This document shows positions 1,843 through 64,000 of a stretch of DNA of 64,000 bases, piece by piece (the first letter of the stretch is position 1; each line of letters begins with the position of its first letter). This stretch comes from Escherichia coli (GTDB lineage: Bacteria; Pseudomonadota; Gammaproteobacteria; Enterobacterales; Enterobacteriaceae). The stretch lies in the NCBI RefSeq assembly GCF_044324875.1, contig NZ_CP172185.1. One strand, written 5' to 3'. The notes below the pieces were generated by a model, which saw only the letters and a program-made list of their open reading frames with translations, searched no databases and was not told the origin of the DNA. The translations under genes were made by a program, and so were the position numbers.

Positions 1843-3387
1843 ATGGATGTCATTAAAAAGAAACATTGGTGGCAAAGCGACGCGCTGAAATGGTCAGTGT
1901 TAGGTCTGCTCGGCCTGCTGGTGGGTTACCTTGTTGTTTTAATGTACGCACAAGGGGAATACCTGTTCGCCATTACCACGCTGATATTGAGTTCAGCGGG
2001 GCTGTATATTTTCGCCAATCGTAAAGCCTACGCCTGGCGCTATGTTTACCCGGGAATGGCTGGAATGGGATTATTCGTCCTCTTCCCTTTGGTCTGCACC
2101 ATCGCCATTGCCTTCACCAACTACAGCAGCACTAACCAGCTGACTTTTGAACGTGCGCAGGAAGTGTTGTTAGATCGCTCCTGGCAAGCAGGCAAAACCT
2201 ATAATTTTGGTCTTTACCCGGCGGGCGATGAGTGGCAACTGGCGCTCAGCGACGGCGAAACCGGCAAAAATTACCTCTCCGACGCGTTTAAATTTGGCGG
2301 CGAGCAAAAACTGCAACTGAAAGAAACGACCGCCCAGCCCGAAGGCGAACGCGCGAATCTACGCGTGATTACCCAGAACCGTCAGGCGCTGAGTGACATT
2401 ACCGCCATTCTGCCGGATGGCAACAAAGTGATGATGAGCTCCCTGCGCCAGTTTTCTGGCACGCAGCCGCTCTACACACTCGACGGTGACGGCACGTTGA
2501 CGAATAATCAGAGCGGCGTGAAATATCGTCCGAATAACCAAATTGGCTTTTACCAGTCCATTACCGCCGACGGCAACTGGGGCGATGAAAAGCTAAGCCC
2601 CGGTTACACCGTGACCACTGGCTGGAAAAACTTTACCCGCGTCTTCACCGACGAAGGCATTCAGAAACCGTTCCTCGCCATTTTCGTCTGGACCGTGGTG
2701 TTCTCGCTGATCACTGTCTTTTTAACGGTGGCGGTCGGCATGGTTCTGGCGTGTCTGGTGCAGTGGGAAGCGTTGCGCGGCAAAGCGGTCTATCGCGTCC
2801 TGCTGATTCTGCCCTACGCGGTGCCATCGTTCATTTCAATCTTGATTTTCAAAGGGTTGTTTAACCAGAGCTTCGGTGAGATCAACATGATGTTGAGCGC
2901 GCTGTTTGGCGTGAAGCCCGCCTGGTTCAGCGATCCGACCACCGCCCGAACGATGCTGATTATCGTCAATACCTGGCTGGGTTATCCGTACATGATGATC
3001 CTCTGCATGGGCTTGCTGAAAGCGATTCCGGACGATTTGTATGAAGCCTCAGCAATGGATGGCGCAGGTCCGTTCCAGAACTTCTTTAAGATTACGCTGC
3101 CGCTGCTGATTAAACCGCTGACGCCGCTGATGATCGCCAGCTTCGCCTTTAACTTTAACAACTTCGTGCTGATTCAACTGTTAACCAACGGCGGCCCGGA
3201 TCGTCTTGGCACGACCACGCCAGCCGGTTATACCGACCTGCTTGTTAACTACACCTACCGCATCGCTTTTGAAGGCGGCGGGGGTCAGGACTTCGGTCTG
3301 GCGGCAGCAATTGCCACGCTGATCTTCCTGCTGGTGGGTGCGCTGGCGATAGTGAACCTGAAAGCCACGCGAATGAAGTTTGATTAA
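1843..3387 (+). CDS. malF: Maltose ABC transporter permease MalF (514 aa)
   Basis: ORF contains [26 protein letters not shown]...; start placed at the MDVIKKK methionine (ORF track begins 5 codons upstream). Confidence 0.95.
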
Positions 3388-58755: not shown

Positions 58756-59885
58756 AAACCTTCAGCGATCGCTGGCGAGAACTGGACTGGGACGACATCC
58801 GCCTGCGTATCAACGGCAAAACGGCTGCTGACGTAGAGCGGGCGCTAAATGCCTCGCAACTCACCCGCGACGATATGATGGCGCTGTTATCGCCAGCCGC
58901 CAGTGGCTATCTGGAACTACTGGCCCAACGGGCGCAGCGTCTGACCCGTCAACGATTTGGCAACACTGTTAGCTTCTACGTCCCGCTTTATCTTTCCAAT
59001 CTTTGCGCTAACGACTGCACGTACTGCGGATTCTCTATGAGCAACCGCATCAAGCGCAAAACGCTGGATGAAGCGGATATTGCCAGGGAAAGCGCCGCTA
59101 TACGGGAGATGGGCTTTGAACATCTGCTTTTAGTCACTGGTGAACATCAGGCGAAAGTGGGGATGGATTACTTTCGTCGTCATCTCCCTGCCCTGCGTGA
59201 ACAGTTCTCTTCACTACAGATGGAAGTACAGCCGCTGGCGGAGACGGAATACGCCGAGTTAAAGCAACTTGGTCTGGATGGCGTGATGGTTTATCAGGAG
59301 ACATATCACGAGGCGACTTATGCCCGCCATCATCTGAAAGGCAAAAAACAGGACTTCTTCTGGCGGCTGGAAACGCCGGATCGGCTGGGCCGTGCGGGGA
59401 TTGATAAGATAGGCCTCGGCGCGCTAATTGGCCTTTCCGACAGCTGGCGCGTTGACTGCTATATGGTTGCAGAACATTTGCTATGGCTGCAACAGCATTA
59501 CTGGCAAAGCCGCTACTCTGTCTCCTTCCCACGCCTGCGTCCATGTACTGGCGGCATTGAGCCTGCGTCGATTATGGATGAACGCCAGTTAGTGCAAACC
59601 ATCTGCGCCTTCCGGCTGCTTGCACCGGAGATTGAACTGTCACTCTCCACGCGGGAATCACCGTGGTTTCGCGATCGCGTTATTCCGCTGGCAATTAATA
59701 ACGTCAGCGCTTTTTCGAAAACGCAGCCAGGTGGCTATGCCGACAATCACCCCGAGCTGGAACAGTTCTCACCGCACGACGATCGCAGACCGGAAGCGGT
59801 TGCTGCCGCGTTAACTGCTCAGGGTTTGCAGCCGGTATGGAAAGACTGGGACAGCTTTCTGGGACGCGCCTCGCAAAGGCCATGA
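58752..59885 (+). CDS. thiH: 2-iminoacetate synthase ThiH, radical SAM tyrosine lyase (377 aa)
   Basis: [10 protein letters not shown] radical-SAM motif; 4-nt overlap with thiG. Confidence 0.95.
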
Positions 59886-60133
59886 GACAGAATGTAAGAA
59901 CGTAAATTTATTCCGAGCCGCTACGGAAGATGAAAAACGCAAGGTTGTTGAAAGCGTTGTGTTTTTTTATGGTAGTGCCGTCAGCAGGAATGTTGTCCAG
60001 GGCGAAAAGCTTCTTCCTCGTTTCGCCCTGCCTTTCTTAAAAATTCCGTAATGCAAAGTCTGAAGCCATCGCCTGTTGAGCAATGAAAGAGATCTGATTG
60101 TAAGAGAGTAAATACTCAACTATGATAGAGACG

Positions 60134-60296
60134 AAAATAAGAACACATGTTCTCATCTTCTAGGATGCAGCAGACTGAAGAAATTCAGACATCCCGCAAC
60201 CTGCGATTATCGCAAGGTCAAGGCAAAGTCCGGTAATGGCGTTCTGAATACCAGAGATAATTCTCTGGCGAAACCCACCTTAAGGTGGGTTTTGTT
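60134..60296 (+). ncRNA. Candidate small RNA (SroH-like) in the thiH-htrC intergenic region
   Basis: Sigma70-like promoter TTGTAA-17bp-TATGAT (60098-60126) followed about 165 nt later by a strong plus-strand terminator AAACCCACC-TTAA-GGTGGGTTT + TGTTATTTT (60270-60296); no plausible ORF; K-12 is reported to encode sRNA SroH in this intergenic region (from memory). Confidence 0.35.
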
Positions 60297-60834
60297 ATTT
60301 TGAGGGCTGAGGAAGCTGCTTATTTCTCAATAAGTTGTAGGCAATGGTGAAAAATTTCACTGATTTACCTTTCTGTTTTTCAGAAATGGGATAAGCGCTA
60401 GTTACATGCAAACGAAGTTTTTTCTTTTCCCTGAAAGCCCTGAACGCAACAAAGTAAAATGCCTTGTCTCCTCCGTTTAAATCCACTTCAATCACGGCAT
60501 AGCTACCATACCCAGCATGAATAACGTTGCTTTCTGGCAGCGCCAAAATGGTTCTTTTTAAGTGTATGCGCGCTAAGTTATAACGGTGCTGGCAGAAGGG
60601 ACGAGATTCTTTAGGCGCGTGGTACATTAACGATTGTTTTTCTTCGTTAGTCTGATGTTCATAATCTTTTGTGAAGCAGTGAAGAGAGTAGGTAACCCAG
60701 AAGCGATACTCTAAAGGCTCTTTGCCCTCATGATGCTGAACGTAGACAGCCTGATGAGCATCAAGAAATGATAAATCACGAATATCACCATCCGGATGTC
60801 CAAAAGGTCGCCACTTCTCCACTTCCTGTTTCAT
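60295..60834 (-). CDS. htrC: Heat-shock protein HtrC / YjaZ (179 aa)
   Basis: 179-aa ORF MKQEVEKWRPFGHPDGDIRDLSFLDAHQAVYVQHHEGKEPLEYRF... at the K-12 htrC position downstream of rpoC. Confidence 0.85.
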   Translation of the reverse strand: MKQEVEKWRPFGHPDGDIRDLSFLDAHQAVYVQHHEGKEPLEYRFWVTYSLHCFTKDYEHQTNEEKQSLMYHAPKESRPFCQHRYNLARIHLKRTILALPESNVIHAGYGSYAVIEVDLNGGDKAFYFVAFRAFREKKKLRLHVTSAYPISEKQKGKSVKFFTIAYNLLRNKQLPQPSK

Positions 60835-60995
60835 TATCGTTCCTTAAGAAAGTCACACAGGAATAGTATCGAATTCTTGCCGAGCTTGACTCAATTAGTT
60901 CAGTCAGTTTCAGGATATTAGTCATCTCTACATTGATTATGAGTATCCAGAAATTCATTAAATATTCTGACAAATGCTCTTTCCCTAAACTACCC

Positions 60996-61025
60996 CCATA
61001 AAAAAACCCGCCGAAGCGGGTTTTT
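60996..61025 (-). terminator. Rho-independent terminator of rpoC (rpoBC operon end)
   Basis: Minus-strand hairpin AAACCCGCTTCGGCGGGTTT followed by TTTTTTATGG, about 25 bp after the rpoC stop. Confidence 0.85.
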
Positions 61026-61046
61026 ACGTTATTTGCGGATTAACGA

Positions 61047-64000
61047 TTACTCGTTATCAGAACCGCCCAGACCTGCGTTCAGCAGTTCTGCCAGGCTGGC
61101 AGATGCGTCTTCTGCAGTCACCTGCGGTGCAGCCGGAGCTTCACCCGCAGCACGGCGACGCATACGATCCTGGTGATACGCGTAACCGGTACCAGCCGGG
61201 ATCAGACGACCCACGATAACGTTCTCTTTCAGGCCGCGCAGTTCGTCGCGTTTGCCCGCAACGGCTGCTTCGGTCAGCACGCGAGTGGTCTCCTGGAACG
61301 ATGCCGCGGAGATGAAGGACTCGGTTGCCAGAGACGCTTTGGTGATACCCAGCAGATCGCGGGAGTAAGTTGCACCCACTTTGCCGTTCGCTTCCAGTTC
61401 GCGGTTTGCGATCTTGACGCGAGAGTATTCAACCTGTTCGCCTTCCAGGAAGTCGGAGCTGCCCGCGTTAACGATGGTAGCTTTACGCAGCATCTGACGA
61501 ACGATAACTTCGATGTGTTTATCGTTAATCTTAACGCCCTGCAGACGGTATACGTCCTGTACTTCGTTAACGATGTAACGAGTAACAGCATGAACACCAC
61601 GCAGACGCAGAATGTCGTGCGGCGCTTCCGGACCATCGGAAATTACGTCACCACGTTCTACACGTTCACCTTCGAACACGTTGAGCTGACGCCATTTCGG
61701 AATCATCTCTTCGTACGGATCGCTACCGTCTACCGGGGTGATAACCAGACGACGTTTACCTTTGGTTTCTTTACCGAAGGAAACGATACCGCTGATTTCA
61801 GCCAGGATTGCCGGCTCTTTCGGACGACGTGCTTCGAACAGGTCCGCAACGCGCGGCAGACCACCGGTGATGTCCTTGGTACCGCCGGATTCCTGCGGAA
61901 TACGCGCCAGGGTGTCACCAGAGCTGATCTGTACGCCATCTTCCAGCTGAACAATCGCTTTACCCGGCAGGAAGTACTGCGCTGGCATATCGGTACCCGG
62001 GATCAGAACGTCGTTACCCTGAGCATCAACGATTTTCAGTGCCGGACGCAGATCTTTACCACCTGCGGTACGTTCTGCGGAATCCAGAACCACCAGCGAA
62101 GACAGACCGGTCAATTCGTCGGTCTGACGCGTAATGGTCTGACCGTCGATCATGTCAGTAAAGCGTACAAAACCGCTTACTTCGGTGATAACCGGCATGG
62201 TGTGCGGGTCCCAGTTTGCAACGGTTTCGCCGCCAGCAACCTGTTCGCCATCGCCTTTCGCCAGTACCGCACCGTAAGGTACTTTGTAGCTTTCTTTGGT
62301 ACGACCGAATTCGTCGATCAGTTTCAGTTCGGTGTTACGGGAAGTGATAACCAGTTTACCGCTGGAGTTCACAACCGACTTCACGTTGCTGAGCTTGATG
62401 CTACCTTTGTTTTTCACCTGGATGCTGGATTCAGCAGCCGCACGAGATGCCGCACCACCGATGTGGAACGTACGCATGGTCAGCTGGGTACCCGGTTCAC
62501 CGATGGACTGTGCCGCGATAACACCGATTGCTTCACCTTTGTTGATGATGTGGCCACGCGCCAGGTCACGACCGTAGCAGTGCGCACATACACCAAAGTC
62601 GGTGTCACAAGATACAACAGAACGTACTTTAACCGCGTCGACAGAGTTCTCTTCCAGCAGGTCACACCACTGTTCGTGCAGCAGCGTGTTGCGCGGAACG
62701 AGGATATCAGCAGTACCCGGCTTCAGAACGTCTTCAGCAGTTACACGACCCAGTACGCGATCGCGCAGCGGCTCTTTAACGTCACCACCTTCGATAACCG
62801 GAGTCATCATGATACCTTCATGAGTACCACAATCGTCTTCGGTAACCACCAGGTCCTGCGCCACGTCAACCAGACGACGAGTCAGGTAACCGGAGTTCGC
62901 AGTTTTCAGTGCGGTATCCGCCAGACCTTTACGAGCACCGTGGGTGGAGATGAAGTACTGGAGTACGTTCAGACCTTCACGGAAGTTCGCGGTGATTGGC
63001 GTTTCGATGATGGAGCCATCCGGCTTCGCCATCAGACCACGCATACCAGCGAGCTGACGAATCTGTGCCGCAGAACCACGCGCACCGGAGTCGGCCATCA
63101 TGTAGATGCTGTTGAAGGAAACCTGCTTCTCTTCCTGACCGTCACGGTTAATCACGGTTTCAGTTTGCAGGTTATCCATCATCGCTTTGGATACACGATC
63201 GTTCGCCGCAGCCCAGATATCGATAACTTTGTTGTAGCGTTCGCCCGCAGTTACCAGACCAGACTGGAACTGCTCCTGAATTTCAGCAACTTCTGCTTCT
63301 GCCTCGGAGATGATTTCGTGTTTCTTCTCCGGGATGACCATGTCATCGATACCAACAGATGCACCAGAACGCGCTGCATAGGCGAAGCCGGTGTACATGA
63401 TCTGGTCCGCAAAAATAACGGTCGGTTTCAGACCGAGAATGCGGTAGCAGGTGTTCAGCATTTTGGAGATTGCTTTTTTACCCAGCGCCTGGTTGACGAT
63501 GGAGTAAGGCAGACCTTTCGGTACAATCATCCACAGAATGGCACGGCCAACAGTCGTGTCTTTCAGGCTGGTTTTCGCTACTAATTCACCGTTAGCATCT
63601 TTTTCATACTCGGTGATACGCACTTTAACGCGCGCATGCAGAGAAGCCAGACCAGAGCGATACAGACGTTCTGCTTCTTTCGGGCCAGTCAGCACCATGC
63701 CTTCGCCTTTGGCGTTAACACAGTCACGGGTCATGTAGTACAGACCCAGTACAACGTCCTGAGACGGAACGATGATTGGTTCGCCGTTCGCCGGGGAAAG
63801 GATGTTGTTGGTAGACATCATCAGCGCACGCGCTTCCAGCTGGGCTTCCAGCGTCAGCGGTACGTGAACTGCCATCTGGTCACCATCGAAGTCGGCGTTA
63901 TATGCCGCACAAACCAGCGGGTGCAGCTGGATAGCTTTACCTTCGATCAGTACCGGTTCAAATGCCTGGATACCCAGGCGGTGCAGAGTCGGTGCACGGT
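61047..64000 (-). CDS. rpoC: RNA polymerase beta' subunit RpoC, 3' ~2.95 kb (C-terminal ~984 codons; gene continues beyond window end)
   Basis: Translation contains ...[12 protein letters not shown]-adjacent region through the C-terminus (…[14 protein letters not shown]); frame remains open to position 64000. Confidence 0.97.

What the first reader, a model, noticed from the sequence alone, without database searches (positions are those of the whole stretch)
60098..60296. Promoter-to-terminator unit without ORF in the thiH-htrC spacer (SroH-like sRNA candidate)
The 409-bp thiH-htrC intergenic region contains a near-consensus sigma70 promoter (TTGTAA, 17-bp spacer, TATGAT at 60098-60126) and, about 165 nt downstream, a strong intrinsic terminator on the same strand (60270-60296) abutting the htrC stop. 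No ORF with an RBS lies between them. This is the architecture of a stand-alone sRNA, and an sRNA (SroH) has been reported in this intergenic region in K-12, but I cannot confirm boundaries or strand from memory.
Basis: partly seen in the sequence, partly recalled or inferred. Interest (0 to 1): 0.35.

Follow-up and report, generated by a model that had tools for sequence, protein, structure and literature searches.

The report
Known sRNA SroH, partnered with YjaZ
The promoter-to-terminator unit is the already annotated E. coli small RNA gene sroH, but comparison with other genomes shows it is a highly structured RNA that travels with the neighbouring gene yjaZ as a mobile two-gene cassette found from enterobacterial plasmids to cyanobacteria, which gives this function-unknown RNA a testable protein partner.

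Summary
Window 60133-60293 (+) is sroH: the Rfam RF00372 model matches full length at 200.8 bits against a cut-off of 80, and the stretch aligns base for base with MG1655 ncRNA b4691. It lies on the thiH strand. Its promoter is TTGTAA-17-TATGAT, whose -10 hexamer ends 6 nt before G60133, and its terminator is an 11-bp hairpin followed by a U-tract. As a gene it is already known.

The context appears not to have been described.
- sroH and yjaZ form a ~0.9-kb presence/absence cassette. sroH is in 3739 and yjaZ in 3737 of 5426 complete E. coli genomes. E. coli C has thiH directly next to rpoC.
- The same RNA+yjaZ pair occurs on enterobacterial plasmids, P1-like phage-plasmids and 2.5-kb ColE1 plasmids, and in Aeromonas, Thiolinea and cyanobacteria.
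- Of 126 RNA copies, 105 have a YjaZ gene adjacent or nearby.
- The RNA has a conserved multi-helix fold: 98.5% of cells paired, and 19 of 30 pairs with compensatory changes.
- The internal ORF is not conserved.
- YjaZ weakly resembles RelE/ParE-fold RNase toxins.

Most likely SroH acts by binding YjaZ, as a type III-like RNA antitoxin or regulator. That mechanism is inferred, not shown.

The parts
60098..60126 (+). sroH promoter: -35 TTGTAA (60098-60103), 17-nt spacer, -10 TATGAT (60121-60126)
   Evidence: Found by the scan. The -10 ends 6 nt before the annotated 5' end G60133. A divergent Escherichia (L003) has the same hexamers, and homologues have equivalent promoters.
60133..60293 (+). 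sroH RNA gene (SroH, b4691 in MG1655), 161 nt
   Evidence: Rfam RF00372 at 200.8 bits (cut-off 80), E 3.7e-50, model positions 1-161 of 161. MG1655 annotation. Alignment with one SNP in this stretch, window T60161 versus C in K-12.
60133..60160 (+). Lineage-specific 5' leader with a small hairpin; absent from most homologues, whose RNA starts at P1
   Evidence: Plasmid homology starts at window ~60157-60162. In most lineages the -10 ends ~8 nt before GGAUG. Hairpin seen in the RNAfold prediction.
60163..60194 (+). P1 (GGAUG 60163-60167 with CAUCC 60190-60194), enclosing the invariant bulge CAGCAGA (60168-60174) and hairpin P2 (60175-60188, GAAA loop)
   Evidence: Compensatory changes in 3 of 5 P1 pairs and 4 of 5 P2 pairs across 40 diverse sequences.
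60195..60241 (+). Three-way junction. The long-range helix P3 pairs CGCA (60195-60198) with U60237 and GCG (60239-60241), with G60238 bulged. It encloses P4 (ACC..GGU hairpin, 60199-60218), P5 (mini-hairpin, 60222-60231) and the invariant GGUAA (60232-60236).
   Evidence: All 4 P3 pairs covary and are 100% paired. P4 and P5 come from my parse of 76 of 78 variants, including the ACG..CGU compensatory variant in L063. The same junction is predicted independently in a remote homologue, L143.
60242..60250 (+). Invariant unpaired segment UUCUGAAUA
   Evidence: Invariant in 40 of 40 aligned sequences, from E. coli to cyanobacteria.
60251..60268 (+). Hairpin P6 (CCAGAGA / UCUCUGG)
   Evidence: 3 of 6 pairs show compensatory changes, e.g. 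CCAGAG/CUCUGG to CCAAAA/UUUUGG.
60269..60301 (+). Intrinsic terminator: CGAA plus stem 60271-60279 / 60284-60292, then the U-rich tail UUUUGUUAUUUU. The yjaZ stop codon (60295-60297, - strand) lies inside the tail.
   Evidence: I8; 5 of 10 pairs compensatory. The tail UUUGUUAUUU is also kept in loci where yjaZ is not convergent.
60295..60834 (-). yjaZ (htrC), 179 aa, YjaZ family (PF27200 / NF007263); the partner gene, convergent with sroH
   Evidence: Co-distributed with sroH in E. coli and across taxa.
60835..60975 (-). yjaZ upstream region (5' UTR and promoter), the right arm of the cassette
   Evidence: Absent together with sroH and yjaZ from E. coli C and ZJ3920. No promoter was called here by the sigma70 scan.
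60050..60975 (.). sroH-yjaZ presence/absence cassette (~0.9 kb). In 'empty' E. coli genomes it is replaced by about 6-26 nt. The boundaries are approximate: the left could lie as far right as ~60085 and the right as far as ~60994.
   Evidence: Alignment A2 with E. coli C and ZJ3920. 1691 of 5420 genomes match only the thiH-proximal 164 nt of the spacer.
59998..60030 (+). Context: a 10-bp GC-rich hairpin followed by CCUUUCUU. It is probably the 3' end or terminator of the thi operon, and lies outside the cassette.
   Evidence: I11. Conserved in genomes with and without the cassette. Its function is inferred.

Best explanation
Window 60133-60293 (+) is the sroH gene. It makes an independently transcribed ~161-nt RNA from a sigma70 promoter, ending at an intrinsic terminator that abuts the yjaZ stop codon (shown).

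SroH is not a lineage-specific base-pairing sRNA. It is the RNA half of a self-contained two-gene cassette of the form [promoter -> structured RNA -> shared hairpin <- yjaZ <- promoter]. The cassette is mobile: it sits on plasmids and phage-plasmids and reaches distant phyla. In Escherichia it lies between the thi operon and rpoC (shown).

The RNA adopts a conserved fold: P1/P2 with an invariant 7-nt bulge, a long-range helix closing a three-way junction, P6 and the terminator. Its most conserved bases sit in loops and junctions (shown by covariation).

Inferred mechanism: SroH works in trans by binding the YjaZ protein, whose predicted fold weakly resembles RelE/ParE-type RNase toxins. Binding would hold YjaZ inactive or control it. 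That would make the pair a type III-like toxin-antitoxin, addiction or abortive-infection module with a single-copy structured RNA instead of repeats.

The confidence given below is for this whole statement, mechanism included. Taken separately: identity as sroH about 0.97; functional coupling to YjaZ about 0.8; an antitoxin-type mechanism about 0.35-0.4.
For: **Identity.** Rfam match, MG1655 annotation and alignment.

**Cassette in E. coli.** E. coli C and ZJ3920 have thiH directly followed by rpoC. sroH is in 3739 and yjaZ in 3737 of 5426 genomes.

**Mobility.**
- 103 plasmid records carry RNA and gene together at the DNA level, and the match always starts inside sroH.
- These include P1-like phage-plasmids, an IncF plasmid, Serratia plasmids and a 2462-bp ColE1 plasmid whose only cargo is this pair.
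- 560 plasmid records match at the protein level.

**Distant taxa.** The RNA lies next to YjaZ homologues of ~50% identity in Aeromonas, Thiolinea and two cyanobacteria.

**RNA-first scan.** Of 126 usable RNA copies, 97 have a convergent YjaZ gene, 3 a tandem one, 5 one nearby (for example IS-interrupted), and 21 none.

**Tandem loci.** In L141, L045 and L115 the order is promoter-RNA-terminator-RBS-yjaZ, with no room for a separate promoter. Adjacency is therefore kept when orientation changes.

**Remote YjaZ homologues (29-35% identity).** They carry diverged RNAs with the same order of helices.

**Structure.** 98.5% of cells paired, 19 of 30 pairs compensatory, 0 of 500 shuffles reach the observed values, and slid controls reach at most 48% paired.

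**Genomic context.** Other TA modules, restriction-modification genes, IS elements and integrases are neighbours.

**RNA kept without yjaZ.** RNA-only copies keep the fold, with lineage-specific compensatory pairs (AAC/GUU) and intact promoters. Every YjaZ gene I examined with enough flank has an adjacent RNA unit.

**Literature.** SroH is not an established Hfq target (bioRxiv 10.1101/2020.06.29.178624) and its function is unknown (PMC5389530).
Against: - No binding or toxicity was tested here.
- sroH deletion mutants of K-12 exist. Reference 65 cited in PMC5389530 reports sensitivity to envelope stress, not lethality. That argues against a constitutively active toxin held in check only by SroH.
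- The usual convergent layout and single-copy RNA differ from every described type III system.
- About 17% of RNA copies have no yjaZ nearby, so the RNA may have a YjaZ-independent role.
- One in vitro mRNA partner (kbl) has been reported (PMC6172242).
- For the most remote homologues (L137, L140) the RNA is inferred only from a promoter and a terminator.
Confidence: 0.45

Rival explanations
1. SroH is an obligatory RNA cofactor or scaffold of a non-toxic YjaZ ribonucleoprotein. Examples would be an RNA-dependent enzyme, or a sensor in a defence or stress pathway, rather than an antidote.
For: The co-occurrence, orientation-independent adjacency and RNA-protein co-divergence are the same as for the best explanation. 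It fits the viability of K-12 sroH and yjaZ mutants better (literature cited in PMC5389530; PMC11551758 notes that yjaZ remains uncharacterised).
Against: Several lineages keep the fold and promoter of RNA-only copies without an adjacent yjaZ. An orphan antidote explains that more easily than an orphan cofactor. The neighbourhood of TA and restriction-modification islands, and carriage as the sole cargo of tiny plasmids, suggests a selfish or addictive module.
Confidence: 0.22
2. SroH is a conventional trans-acting, base-pairing sRNA that regulates chromosomal mRNAs such as kbl or envelope-related genes. On this reading its linkage to yjaZ is incidental.
For: It is annotated as an sRNA. It accumulates in stationary phase (bioRxiv 10.64898/2025.12.22.696124). 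A kbl interaction was seen by EMSA (PMC6172242). The deletion is sensitive to envelope stress (cited in PMC5389530). It was enriched in one Hfq PAR-CLIP data set (bioRxiv 10.1101/2020.06.29.178624).
Against: The RNA is conserved from E. coli to cyanobacteria and on broad-host plasmids, where E. coli targets do not exist. The conserved bases sit in junctions of a covarying multi-helix fold, not in one accessible seed. The RNA is tied to yjaZ in 83% of copies, in two orientations. It is not an established Hfq target.
Confidence: 0.15
3. SroH is a cis-antisense or transcription-interference regulator of yjaZ. It would act through the convergent layout and the shared hairpin at the overlapping 3' ends.
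For: 97 of 105 linked copies are convergent, with the yjaZ stop codon inside the RNA's U-tract. On the yjaZ strand the hairpin has no U-tract, so the yjaZ mRNA may read into sroH (seen directly in the sequence).
Against: Tandem loci keep the RNA and its fold with no 3' overlap. A ~130-nt covarying structure is far more than interference needs. There is no conserved complementarity to the yjaZ 5' region (mean z about 0.5).
Confidence: 0.1
4. The unit encodes a small protein: either the 29-aa ORF at 60147-60236, or the 23-aa ORF that runs from the AUG of GGAUG to the UAA of CCGGUAA.
For: The ORFs exist. The AUG and UAA both lie in invariant blocks. In many lineages the transcript would start 2-4 nt before that AUG.
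Against: Only 22 of 78 variants keep the frame open from AUG to UAA. 31 are out of frame, 23 have earlier stops giving peptides of 1-18 aa, and 2 lack the AUG. The 29-aa ORF starts in the E. coli-specific leader. Variation follows base-pairing, not codons.
Confidence: 0.03
5. The RNA is only a read-through or processed 3' UTR fragment of the thiCEFSGH mRNA.
For: It is on the thiH strand and downstream of thiH.
Against: It has its own promoter at the correct distance. It is absent together with yjaZ while thiH is intact. It occurs in plasmids and other phyla with no thi genes nearby. A primary transcript has been reported (PMC5389530). A hairpin lies between thiH and the promoter.
Confidence: 0.02

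Closest known systems
SroH sRNA (Rfam RF00372; E. coli K-12 b4691). From memory, unverified: first reported in the 2003 RNomics screen by Vogel et al., a paper I could not open.
   Same: It is the same gene: full-length model match, the same strand, the same neighbours, and one SNP in the sroH stretch relative to K-12.
   Different: Nothing differs at the locus. The Rfam model annotates only the terminator helix. The family is also much wider than its gathering score admits, since cyanobacterial and Aeromonas copies score 64-74 bits against a cut-off of 80.
Type III toxin-antitoxin systems (ToxIN, CptIN, TenpIN). Their properties are stated from my own knowledge.
   Same: A non-coding RNA gene with its own promoter and terminator sits next to a gene for a protein with an RNase-like fold. 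The pair is carried on plasmids and phage-related elements. In the tandem variants (L141, L045, L115) the order is promoter-RNA-terminator-ORF, as in ToxIN.
   Different: The RNA is single-copy and elaborately folded, not a tandem array of 34-36-nt repeats; no tandem repeat is present. The usual orientation is convergent. The protein's fold resembles RelE/ParE, not the ToxN/Kid-like fold, and only weakly. Toxicity and RNA binding are untested.
RelE/ParE/HigB superfamily toxins of type II TA systems
   Same: The YjaZ model's best structural neighbours are these toxins and related BECR-fold RNases. Residues typical of RNase active sites are conserved on adjacent strands: E136, K138, R141, H143, Y148.
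   Different: YjaZ is twice their size. There is no sequence-level relationship. No protein antitoxin gene is present; the conserved partner is an RNA.
Type I TA pairs with larger toxins, such as SymE/SymR (stated from my own knowledge)
   Same: A small RNA is encoded next to, and antisense-oriented to, a gene for a stress-linked protein.
   Different: No conserved complementarity to the yjaZ translation start region. The RNA overlaps at most the extreme 3' end. The RNA's conservation is structural.
Structured non-coding RNAs genetically tied to one protein family, such as bacterial Y RNA with Rsr, or HEARO/omega-RNA with IscB (stated from my own knowledge)
   Same: A conserved fold with invariant junction bases, consistent adjacency to one protein family, and mobility.
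   Different: No sequence or model similarity to any Rfam family other than sroH. The partner protein is unrelated to those.

Membership tests
Rfam RF00372 (sroH) | Covariance-model score at or above the gathering threshold (80 bits) over the full model | tested here: met
   200.8 bits, E 3.7e-50, model positions 1-161 of 161, window 60133-60293 (+).
Rfam RF00372 (sroH) | Position and strand of the annotated E. coli gene: between thiH and yjaZ, on the thiH strand | tested here: met
   MG1655 ncRNA b4691 at 4190327-4190487 (-), with thiH also on (-), 1 nt from yjaZ. Base-for-base alignment with the window.
Stand-alone sRNA gene | Own promoter at the right distance from the 5' end | tested here: met
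   TTGTAA-17-TATGAT ends 6 nt before G60133. Promoters are conserved across homologues.
Stand-alone sRNA gene | Intrinsic terminator at the 3' end | tested here: met
   11-bp hairpin plus U-rich tail, with covariation in the stem. The simple terminator scan did not list it.
Stand-alone sRNA gene | Experimentally mapped primary 5' end and a discrete transcript | not testable with these tools
   Literature only: a primary transcript and processed forms (PMC5389530); transcription-start signals matching sRNA 5' ends (PMC3415461).
Hfq-dependent base-pairing sRNA | Established Hfq binding, and a conserved single-stranded seed that pairs with defined targets | tested here: inconclusive
   No seed-like pattern: conserved bases lie in the junctions of a covarying fold. 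The literature calls SroH 'not an established Hfq target', although it was enriched in one PAR-CLIP set (bioRxiv 10.1101/2020.06.29.178624). One EMSA target, kbl, is reported (PMC6172242).
Type III toxin-antitoxin system | The antitoxin RNA is an array of short tandem repeats | tested here: not met
   No tandem repeat in 59886-61046. The RNA is single-copy and structured.
Type III toxin-antitoxin system | The RNA gene precedes the toxin gene on the same strand, separated by a terminator | tested here: not met
   Convergent in the window and in 97 of 105 linked copies. The feature is met only in variant loci L141, L045, L112 and L115.
Type III toxin-antitoxin system | The protein is a toxic endoribonuclease that the RNA binds and neutralises | not testable with these tools
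   Only a weak fold-level resemblance to RNase toxins.
Type I toxin-antitoxin system | A small (<60 aa) hydrophobic toxin, and an antisense RNA complementary to the toxin mRNA | tested here: not met
   YjaZ is 179 aa and soluble-looking. No conserved complementarity to the yjaZ 5' region in 64 modules.
RelE/ParE superfamily (for YjaZ) | Sequence-profile membership | tested here: not met
   No hit in the local Pfam copy or among PDB sequences. The precomputed family is PF27200 YjaZ.
RelE/ParE superfamily (for YjaZ) | Significant structural similarity of the fold | tested here: inconclusive
YjaZ family (NF007263 / PF27200) | Model score above the curated cut-off | tested here: met
   NCBIfam NF007263 at 427.5 bits against a cut-off of 324.

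The most novel reading that the evidence does not exclude
SroH-YjaZ would be the founding example of a new class of RNA-protein toxin-antitoxin, addiction or defence module. A single-copy RNA of ~130 nt with seven helices, encoded convergently or sometimes in tandem, would bind and control a RelE-fold-like RNase of ~180 aa. The pair would have co-diversified into several RNA classes and spread on plasmids, phage-plasmids and chromosomal islands from Enterobacterales to Pseudomonas, Vibrio, Agrobacterium and cyanobacteria. About 700 protein clusters at 50% identity belong to the family.
Probability: 0.35. Interest if true: 0.75.

Novelty: already known. Interest (0 to 1): 0.5.

Why it matters
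The gene itself is ordinary: it is annotated and has an Rfam family. Its function, however, is still listed as unknown (PMC5389530), and yjaZ (formerly htrC) is an uncharacterised gene whose original functional assignment was withdrawn (PMC11551758).

Four results turn two orphan K-12 genes into one hypothesis that simple experiments can test. The two genes are inherited, lost and transferred together. The RNA has a covariation-supported fold conserved across phyla. Remote YjaZ relatives carry matching diverged RNAs. The protein looks like an RNase toxin.

If the hypothesis holds, it would add a new architecture to RNA-antitoxin systems. It would explain why small ColE1 plasmids and P1-like phage-plasmids carry 'heat-shock protein C'. 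It would also remove SroH from lists of candidate Hfq-type regulators.

A practical point follows. RF00372 annotates only the terminator helix, and its threshold misses the distant members of the family.

Tried and rejected
- **Small-protein reading.** Rejected. The AUG-to-UAA frame is intact in only 22 of 78 variants.
- **Antisense pairing of SroH with the yjaZ 5' region.** Rejected. There is no conserved similarity or complementarity in 64 modules. Only E. coli-type loci show a 26-nt, 73% inverted repeat.
- **Read-through product of thiH.** Rejected.
- **Phage origin.** Not supported by the GenBank phage collection, which gave no DNA match and no protein match. The BFVD fold search was uninformative. 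Only P1-like phage-plasmids and 7 IMG/VR contigs carry the RNA.
- **Libraries with no YjaZ hit.** PHROGs, PADLOC, the local Pfam copy, PDB sequences and a PDB profile search. A non-significant SH2B match (E 0.11) was ignored.
- **afdb50 fold library.** Unavailable.
- **RNAalifold pairing of ACC with the GGU of CCGGUAA.** I rejected it in favour of the local ACC..GGU hairpin, because L063 has ACG..CGU there. This rests on one lineage.
- **Resemblances noticed by eye.** These were a hammerhead-like CUGAnnA-stem-CGAAA-stem pattern and 4.5S-like words. I dropped them: the essential G8 equivalent is absent, and Rfam gave no such match.
- **Single-sequence MFE folding of E. coli SroH.** It gives a different 5' half (-50.2 versus -44.0 kcal/mol for the comparative fold), so it is not a guide to the conserved structure.
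- **The original 2003 paper.** It could not be opened.
Full report
**1. What is at the coordinates**

The window is E. coli, in the orientation opposite to MG1655. thiH ends at 59885. yjaZ (formerly htrC) occupies 60295-60834 on the minus strand. rpoC ends at 61047.

The promoter scan reports TTGTAA-17-TATGAT at 60098-60126. The match is 9 of 12, and the region holds no more such sites than shuffled sequence does. The hexamers alone therefore prove nothing.

The terminator scan did not list the 3' hairpin. However, 60271-60292 is a perfect 11+11 palindrome. RNAfold draws an 11-bp stem with a UUAA loop, followed by UUUUGUUAUUUU. The whole 164-nt stretch folds far better than shuffles (z = -5.6).

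**2. Identity**

Rfam's sroH model (RF00372) matches window 60133-60293 (+) end to end, at 200.8 bits against a gathering score of 80 (E 3.7e-50). MG1655 annotates ncRNA sroH (b4691) at 4190327-4190487 on the thiH strand, one base from yjaZ. The window aligns to that region at 99% mean column identity, with one SNP in the sroH stretch.

The -10 hexamer ends 6 nt before the annotated 5' end, G60133.

What the papers I could read say:
- SroH's function is unknown. Full-length and processed forms accumulate in a pcnB mutant. Poly(A) tails were found on the primary transcript. A deletion is sensitive to envelope stress (PMC5389530).
- It rises in stationary phase (bioRxiv 10.64898/2025.12.22.696124; PMC5982834).
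- One mRNA, kbl, bound it in vitro (PMC6172242).
- It is not an established Hfq target (bioRxiv 10.1101/2020.06.29.178624).
- Overexpression did not change biofilm formation or motility (PMC4606813).

**3. sroH and yjaZ are one presence/absence cassette**

- Only 3729 of 5420 complete E. coli genomes cover the whole spacer. The rest match only its thiH-proximal 164 nt.
- In E. coli C and strain ZJ3920, thiH is followed directly by rpoC.
- The alignment shows that window ~60050-60975 is replaced there by a few bases. That stretch holds the sroH promoter, sroH, the shared hairpin, yjaZ and the yjaZ upstream region. The flanking thi-side hairpin (59998-60030) and the rpoC terminator (61002-61025) are intact.
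- sroH alone is found in 3739 genomes and yjaZ alone in 3737 of 5426.
- A divergent Escherichia (L003: ThiH 96% identical, YjaZ 89%) has the cassette at the same site. An earlier study of 27 genomes read the patchy distribution as secondary loss (PMC3318445).

I cannot decide between loss and gain. Either way, the unit of change is the gene pair.

**4. The pair is mobile and widespread**

- A DNA search with the cassette finds 103 plasmid records. In every listed row outside E. coli-type sequence, the match begins at query position 108-113, inside sroH at AGGAUGCAGCAG, and runs on through a yjaZ homologue.
- The loci I fetched are two P1-like phage-plasmids with the pair between baseplate and tail genes, an IncF plasmid, a Serratia plasmid, and a 2462-bp ColE1-type plasmid whose only cargo is this pair.
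- Rfam's sroH model hits all of them above threshold, always abutting the stop codon of the yjaZ homologue.
- YjaZ (NF007263, PF27200) has homologues of ~50% identity in Aeromonas, Oceanimonas, Thiolinea and cyanobacteria.
- In every such locus with enough sequence, a sroH-like RNA lies 1-13 nt beyond the stop codon on the opposite strand, scoring 64-94 bits.

**5. RNA-first test of the association**

I scanned for an RNA-only pattern, CCGGTAA-N6-7-TCTGAATACCA-N8-22-TGGCGA. It found 7 viral and 111 metagenomic stretches.

Of 126 RNA copies with usable flanks:
- 97 have a convergent YjaZ gene;
- 3 have a tandem one;
- 5 have one nearby, for example separated by an IS element;
- 21 have none.

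The RNA-only copies lie among ParE and DUF5615/PIN TA genes and a cytosine methylase gene, plus DUF2887 and DUF1848 proteins of unknown function. Some keep a remnant of the yjaZ 3' end. They still have strong promoters and lineage-specific compensatory pairs.

In the tandem loci the order is promoter, RNA, terminator, ribosome-binding site, yjaZ, with no room for a second promoter. These loci are a Vibrio plasmid (L141) and metagenomic L045, L112 and L115. Adjacency therefore survives a change of orientation. That argues against a purely antisense or terminator-sharing relationship.

**6. The RNA fold**

Forty diverse sequences were aligned, with the window first. RNAalifold and my own parse give the following elements:
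- P1, GGAUG with CAUCC;
- an invariant bulge, CAGCAGA;
- hairpin P2;
- a long-range helix P3 (CGC-N with N'-(G)-GCG), which closes a three-way junction holding P4 (ACC..GGU, variable length, often with GNRA loops) and a mini-hairpin P5;
- invariant GGUAA and UUCUGAAUA;
- hairpin P6;
- CGAA, the terminator, and a conserved UUUGUUAUUU tail.

For the 30 pairs I could place on fixed alignment columns:
- 98.5% of cells are paired;
- 19 pairs show compensatory changes, in 194 cells;
- none of 500 shuffles reaches any observed measure;
- sliding the partners drops pairing to 48% or less;
- all four P3 pairs covary and are never broken.

Promoters sit so that most homologues start at P1. The 28-nt leader at window 60133-60160 is specific to Escherichia-type copies.

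The internal ORF is not conserved. There is no conserved complementarity to the yjaZ 5' region.

**7. Remote relatives**

A profile search finds 706 YjaZ clusters at 50% identity, and 560 plasmid records match at the protein level.

Homologues of 29-35% identity on Klebsiella, Pseudomonas and Agrobacterium plasmids, and in metagenomes, lack SroH-type sequence. Each nevertheless has a promoter, then ~100-140 nt, then a terminator abutting the gene.

Two of these (L142, L143) show the same order of helices with different loop sequences: GUUACAGG in the bulge and NCCUGCC in place of UUCUGAAUA. Three others (L135, L138, L144) share a compact variant. For L137 and L140 the RNA is inferred only from the promoter and the terminator.

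**8. The protein**

Conserved E136, K138, R141, H143 and Y148 lie on adjacent strands. This is a lead, not a proof. No sequence-level link to any toxin or defence family was found.

**9. Interpretation**

Shown:
- the unit is sroH;
- it is independently transcribed;
- it is structurally conserved;
- it is genetically coupled to yjaZ in a mobile cassette.

Inferred: SroH acts by binding YjaZ. Most likely it serves as an RNA antidote or regulator of an RNase-like toxin, which would make the pair a type III-like module.

It fails two defining features of known type III systems, namely repeats and gene order. I therefore do not file it there.

The main counter-argument is that K-12 tolerates deletion of sroH. 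A non-toxic ribonucleoprotein is the chief rival.

No paper in the searchable library mentions sroH together with yjaZ or htrC, or describes this fold. That library is incomplete.

Noticed in passing
window 59998-60030: A perfect 10-bp GC-rich inverted repeat (CAGGGCGAAA ... TTTCGCCCTG, 13-nt loop) followed by CCTTTCTT, 113 nt after the thiH stop. It is conserved in genomes with and without the sroH-yjaZ cassette, and is probably the thi operon terminator or 3' end.
   Followed up: partly
window 61002-61025: The rpoC terminator hairpin (AAAAACCCGC CGAA GCGGGTTTTT) has an A-run before it and a T-run after it, so it looks bidirectional. It forms the right-hand border of the cassette insertion site.
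   Followed up: no
window 60166-60191 and 60887-60912: A 26-nt, 73% inverted repeat links the P1-bulge-P2 region of SroH with the yjaZ upstream region, so the yjaZ leader carries a SroH-like sequence. It is seen only in E. coli-type loci (z about 3) and is not conserved in other lineages.
   Followed up: partly
L008 (NZ_CP072864.1, whole plasmid); also H63-H68: Plasmids of exactly 2462 bp, of ColE1/RNAI type, occur in E. coli, Klebsiella pneumoniae and Proteus mirabilis. I fetched only the E. coli one, pEc184_6. In it the sroH-like RNA and the yjaZ homologue are the only evident cargo apart from the replicon's RNAI and an 84-nt hypothetical ORF.
   Followed up: partly
L141 2221-2470; L045 940-1102: In a Vibrio parahaemolyticus plasmid and in metagenomic contigs the RNA lies upstream of yjaZ on the same strand. 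Only ~15-20 nt, including a ribosome-binding site, separate the terminator tail from the start codon. The tail UUUGUUAUUUC-GGG is retained although it no longer overlaps a stop codon.
   Followed up: partly
L142 3048-3196 (-), L143 ~3036-3190 (-), L144, L135, L138: Remote YjaZ homologues carry diverged partner RNAs that Rfam does not cover. One class keeps all the SroH helices but has GUUACAGG and NCCUGCC in the conserved loops. A compact class shares CCACCCAAGyGUGG and AAUAACCAAGAAG or AUAyUCAAGAGG.
   Followed up: partly
window 60199-60201 versus 60216-60218 and 60232-60234: The invariant ACC could pair with either of two invariant GGU triplets: the local one (closing P4) or the one in CCGGUAA. 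RNAalifold chose the distal one. One natural variant (L063, ACG..CGU) supports the local one. Two alternative conformations cannot be excluded.
   Followed up: partly
E. coli genome hits: Every RefSeq (PGAP) row I saw lists no feature under sroH. Only the MG1655 record annotates the ncRNA.
   Followed up: no
window 60133-60293 versus 60298-60834: Across E. coli genomes sroH is at least 99% identical in 3670 of 3741 matching records. yjaZ is 95-99% identical in 3259 of 3737. The RNA gene is therefore more conserved than its protein partner. The window's yjaZ allele is 98% identical to the K-12 one.
   Followed up: no
L103 / L108: An ORF that I read as an IS256-type transposase from its N-terminal sequence only (not checked against Pfam) lies between the SroH-like RNA and its yjaZ homologue. 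It separates them by about 0.5-1.3 kb.
   Followed up: no
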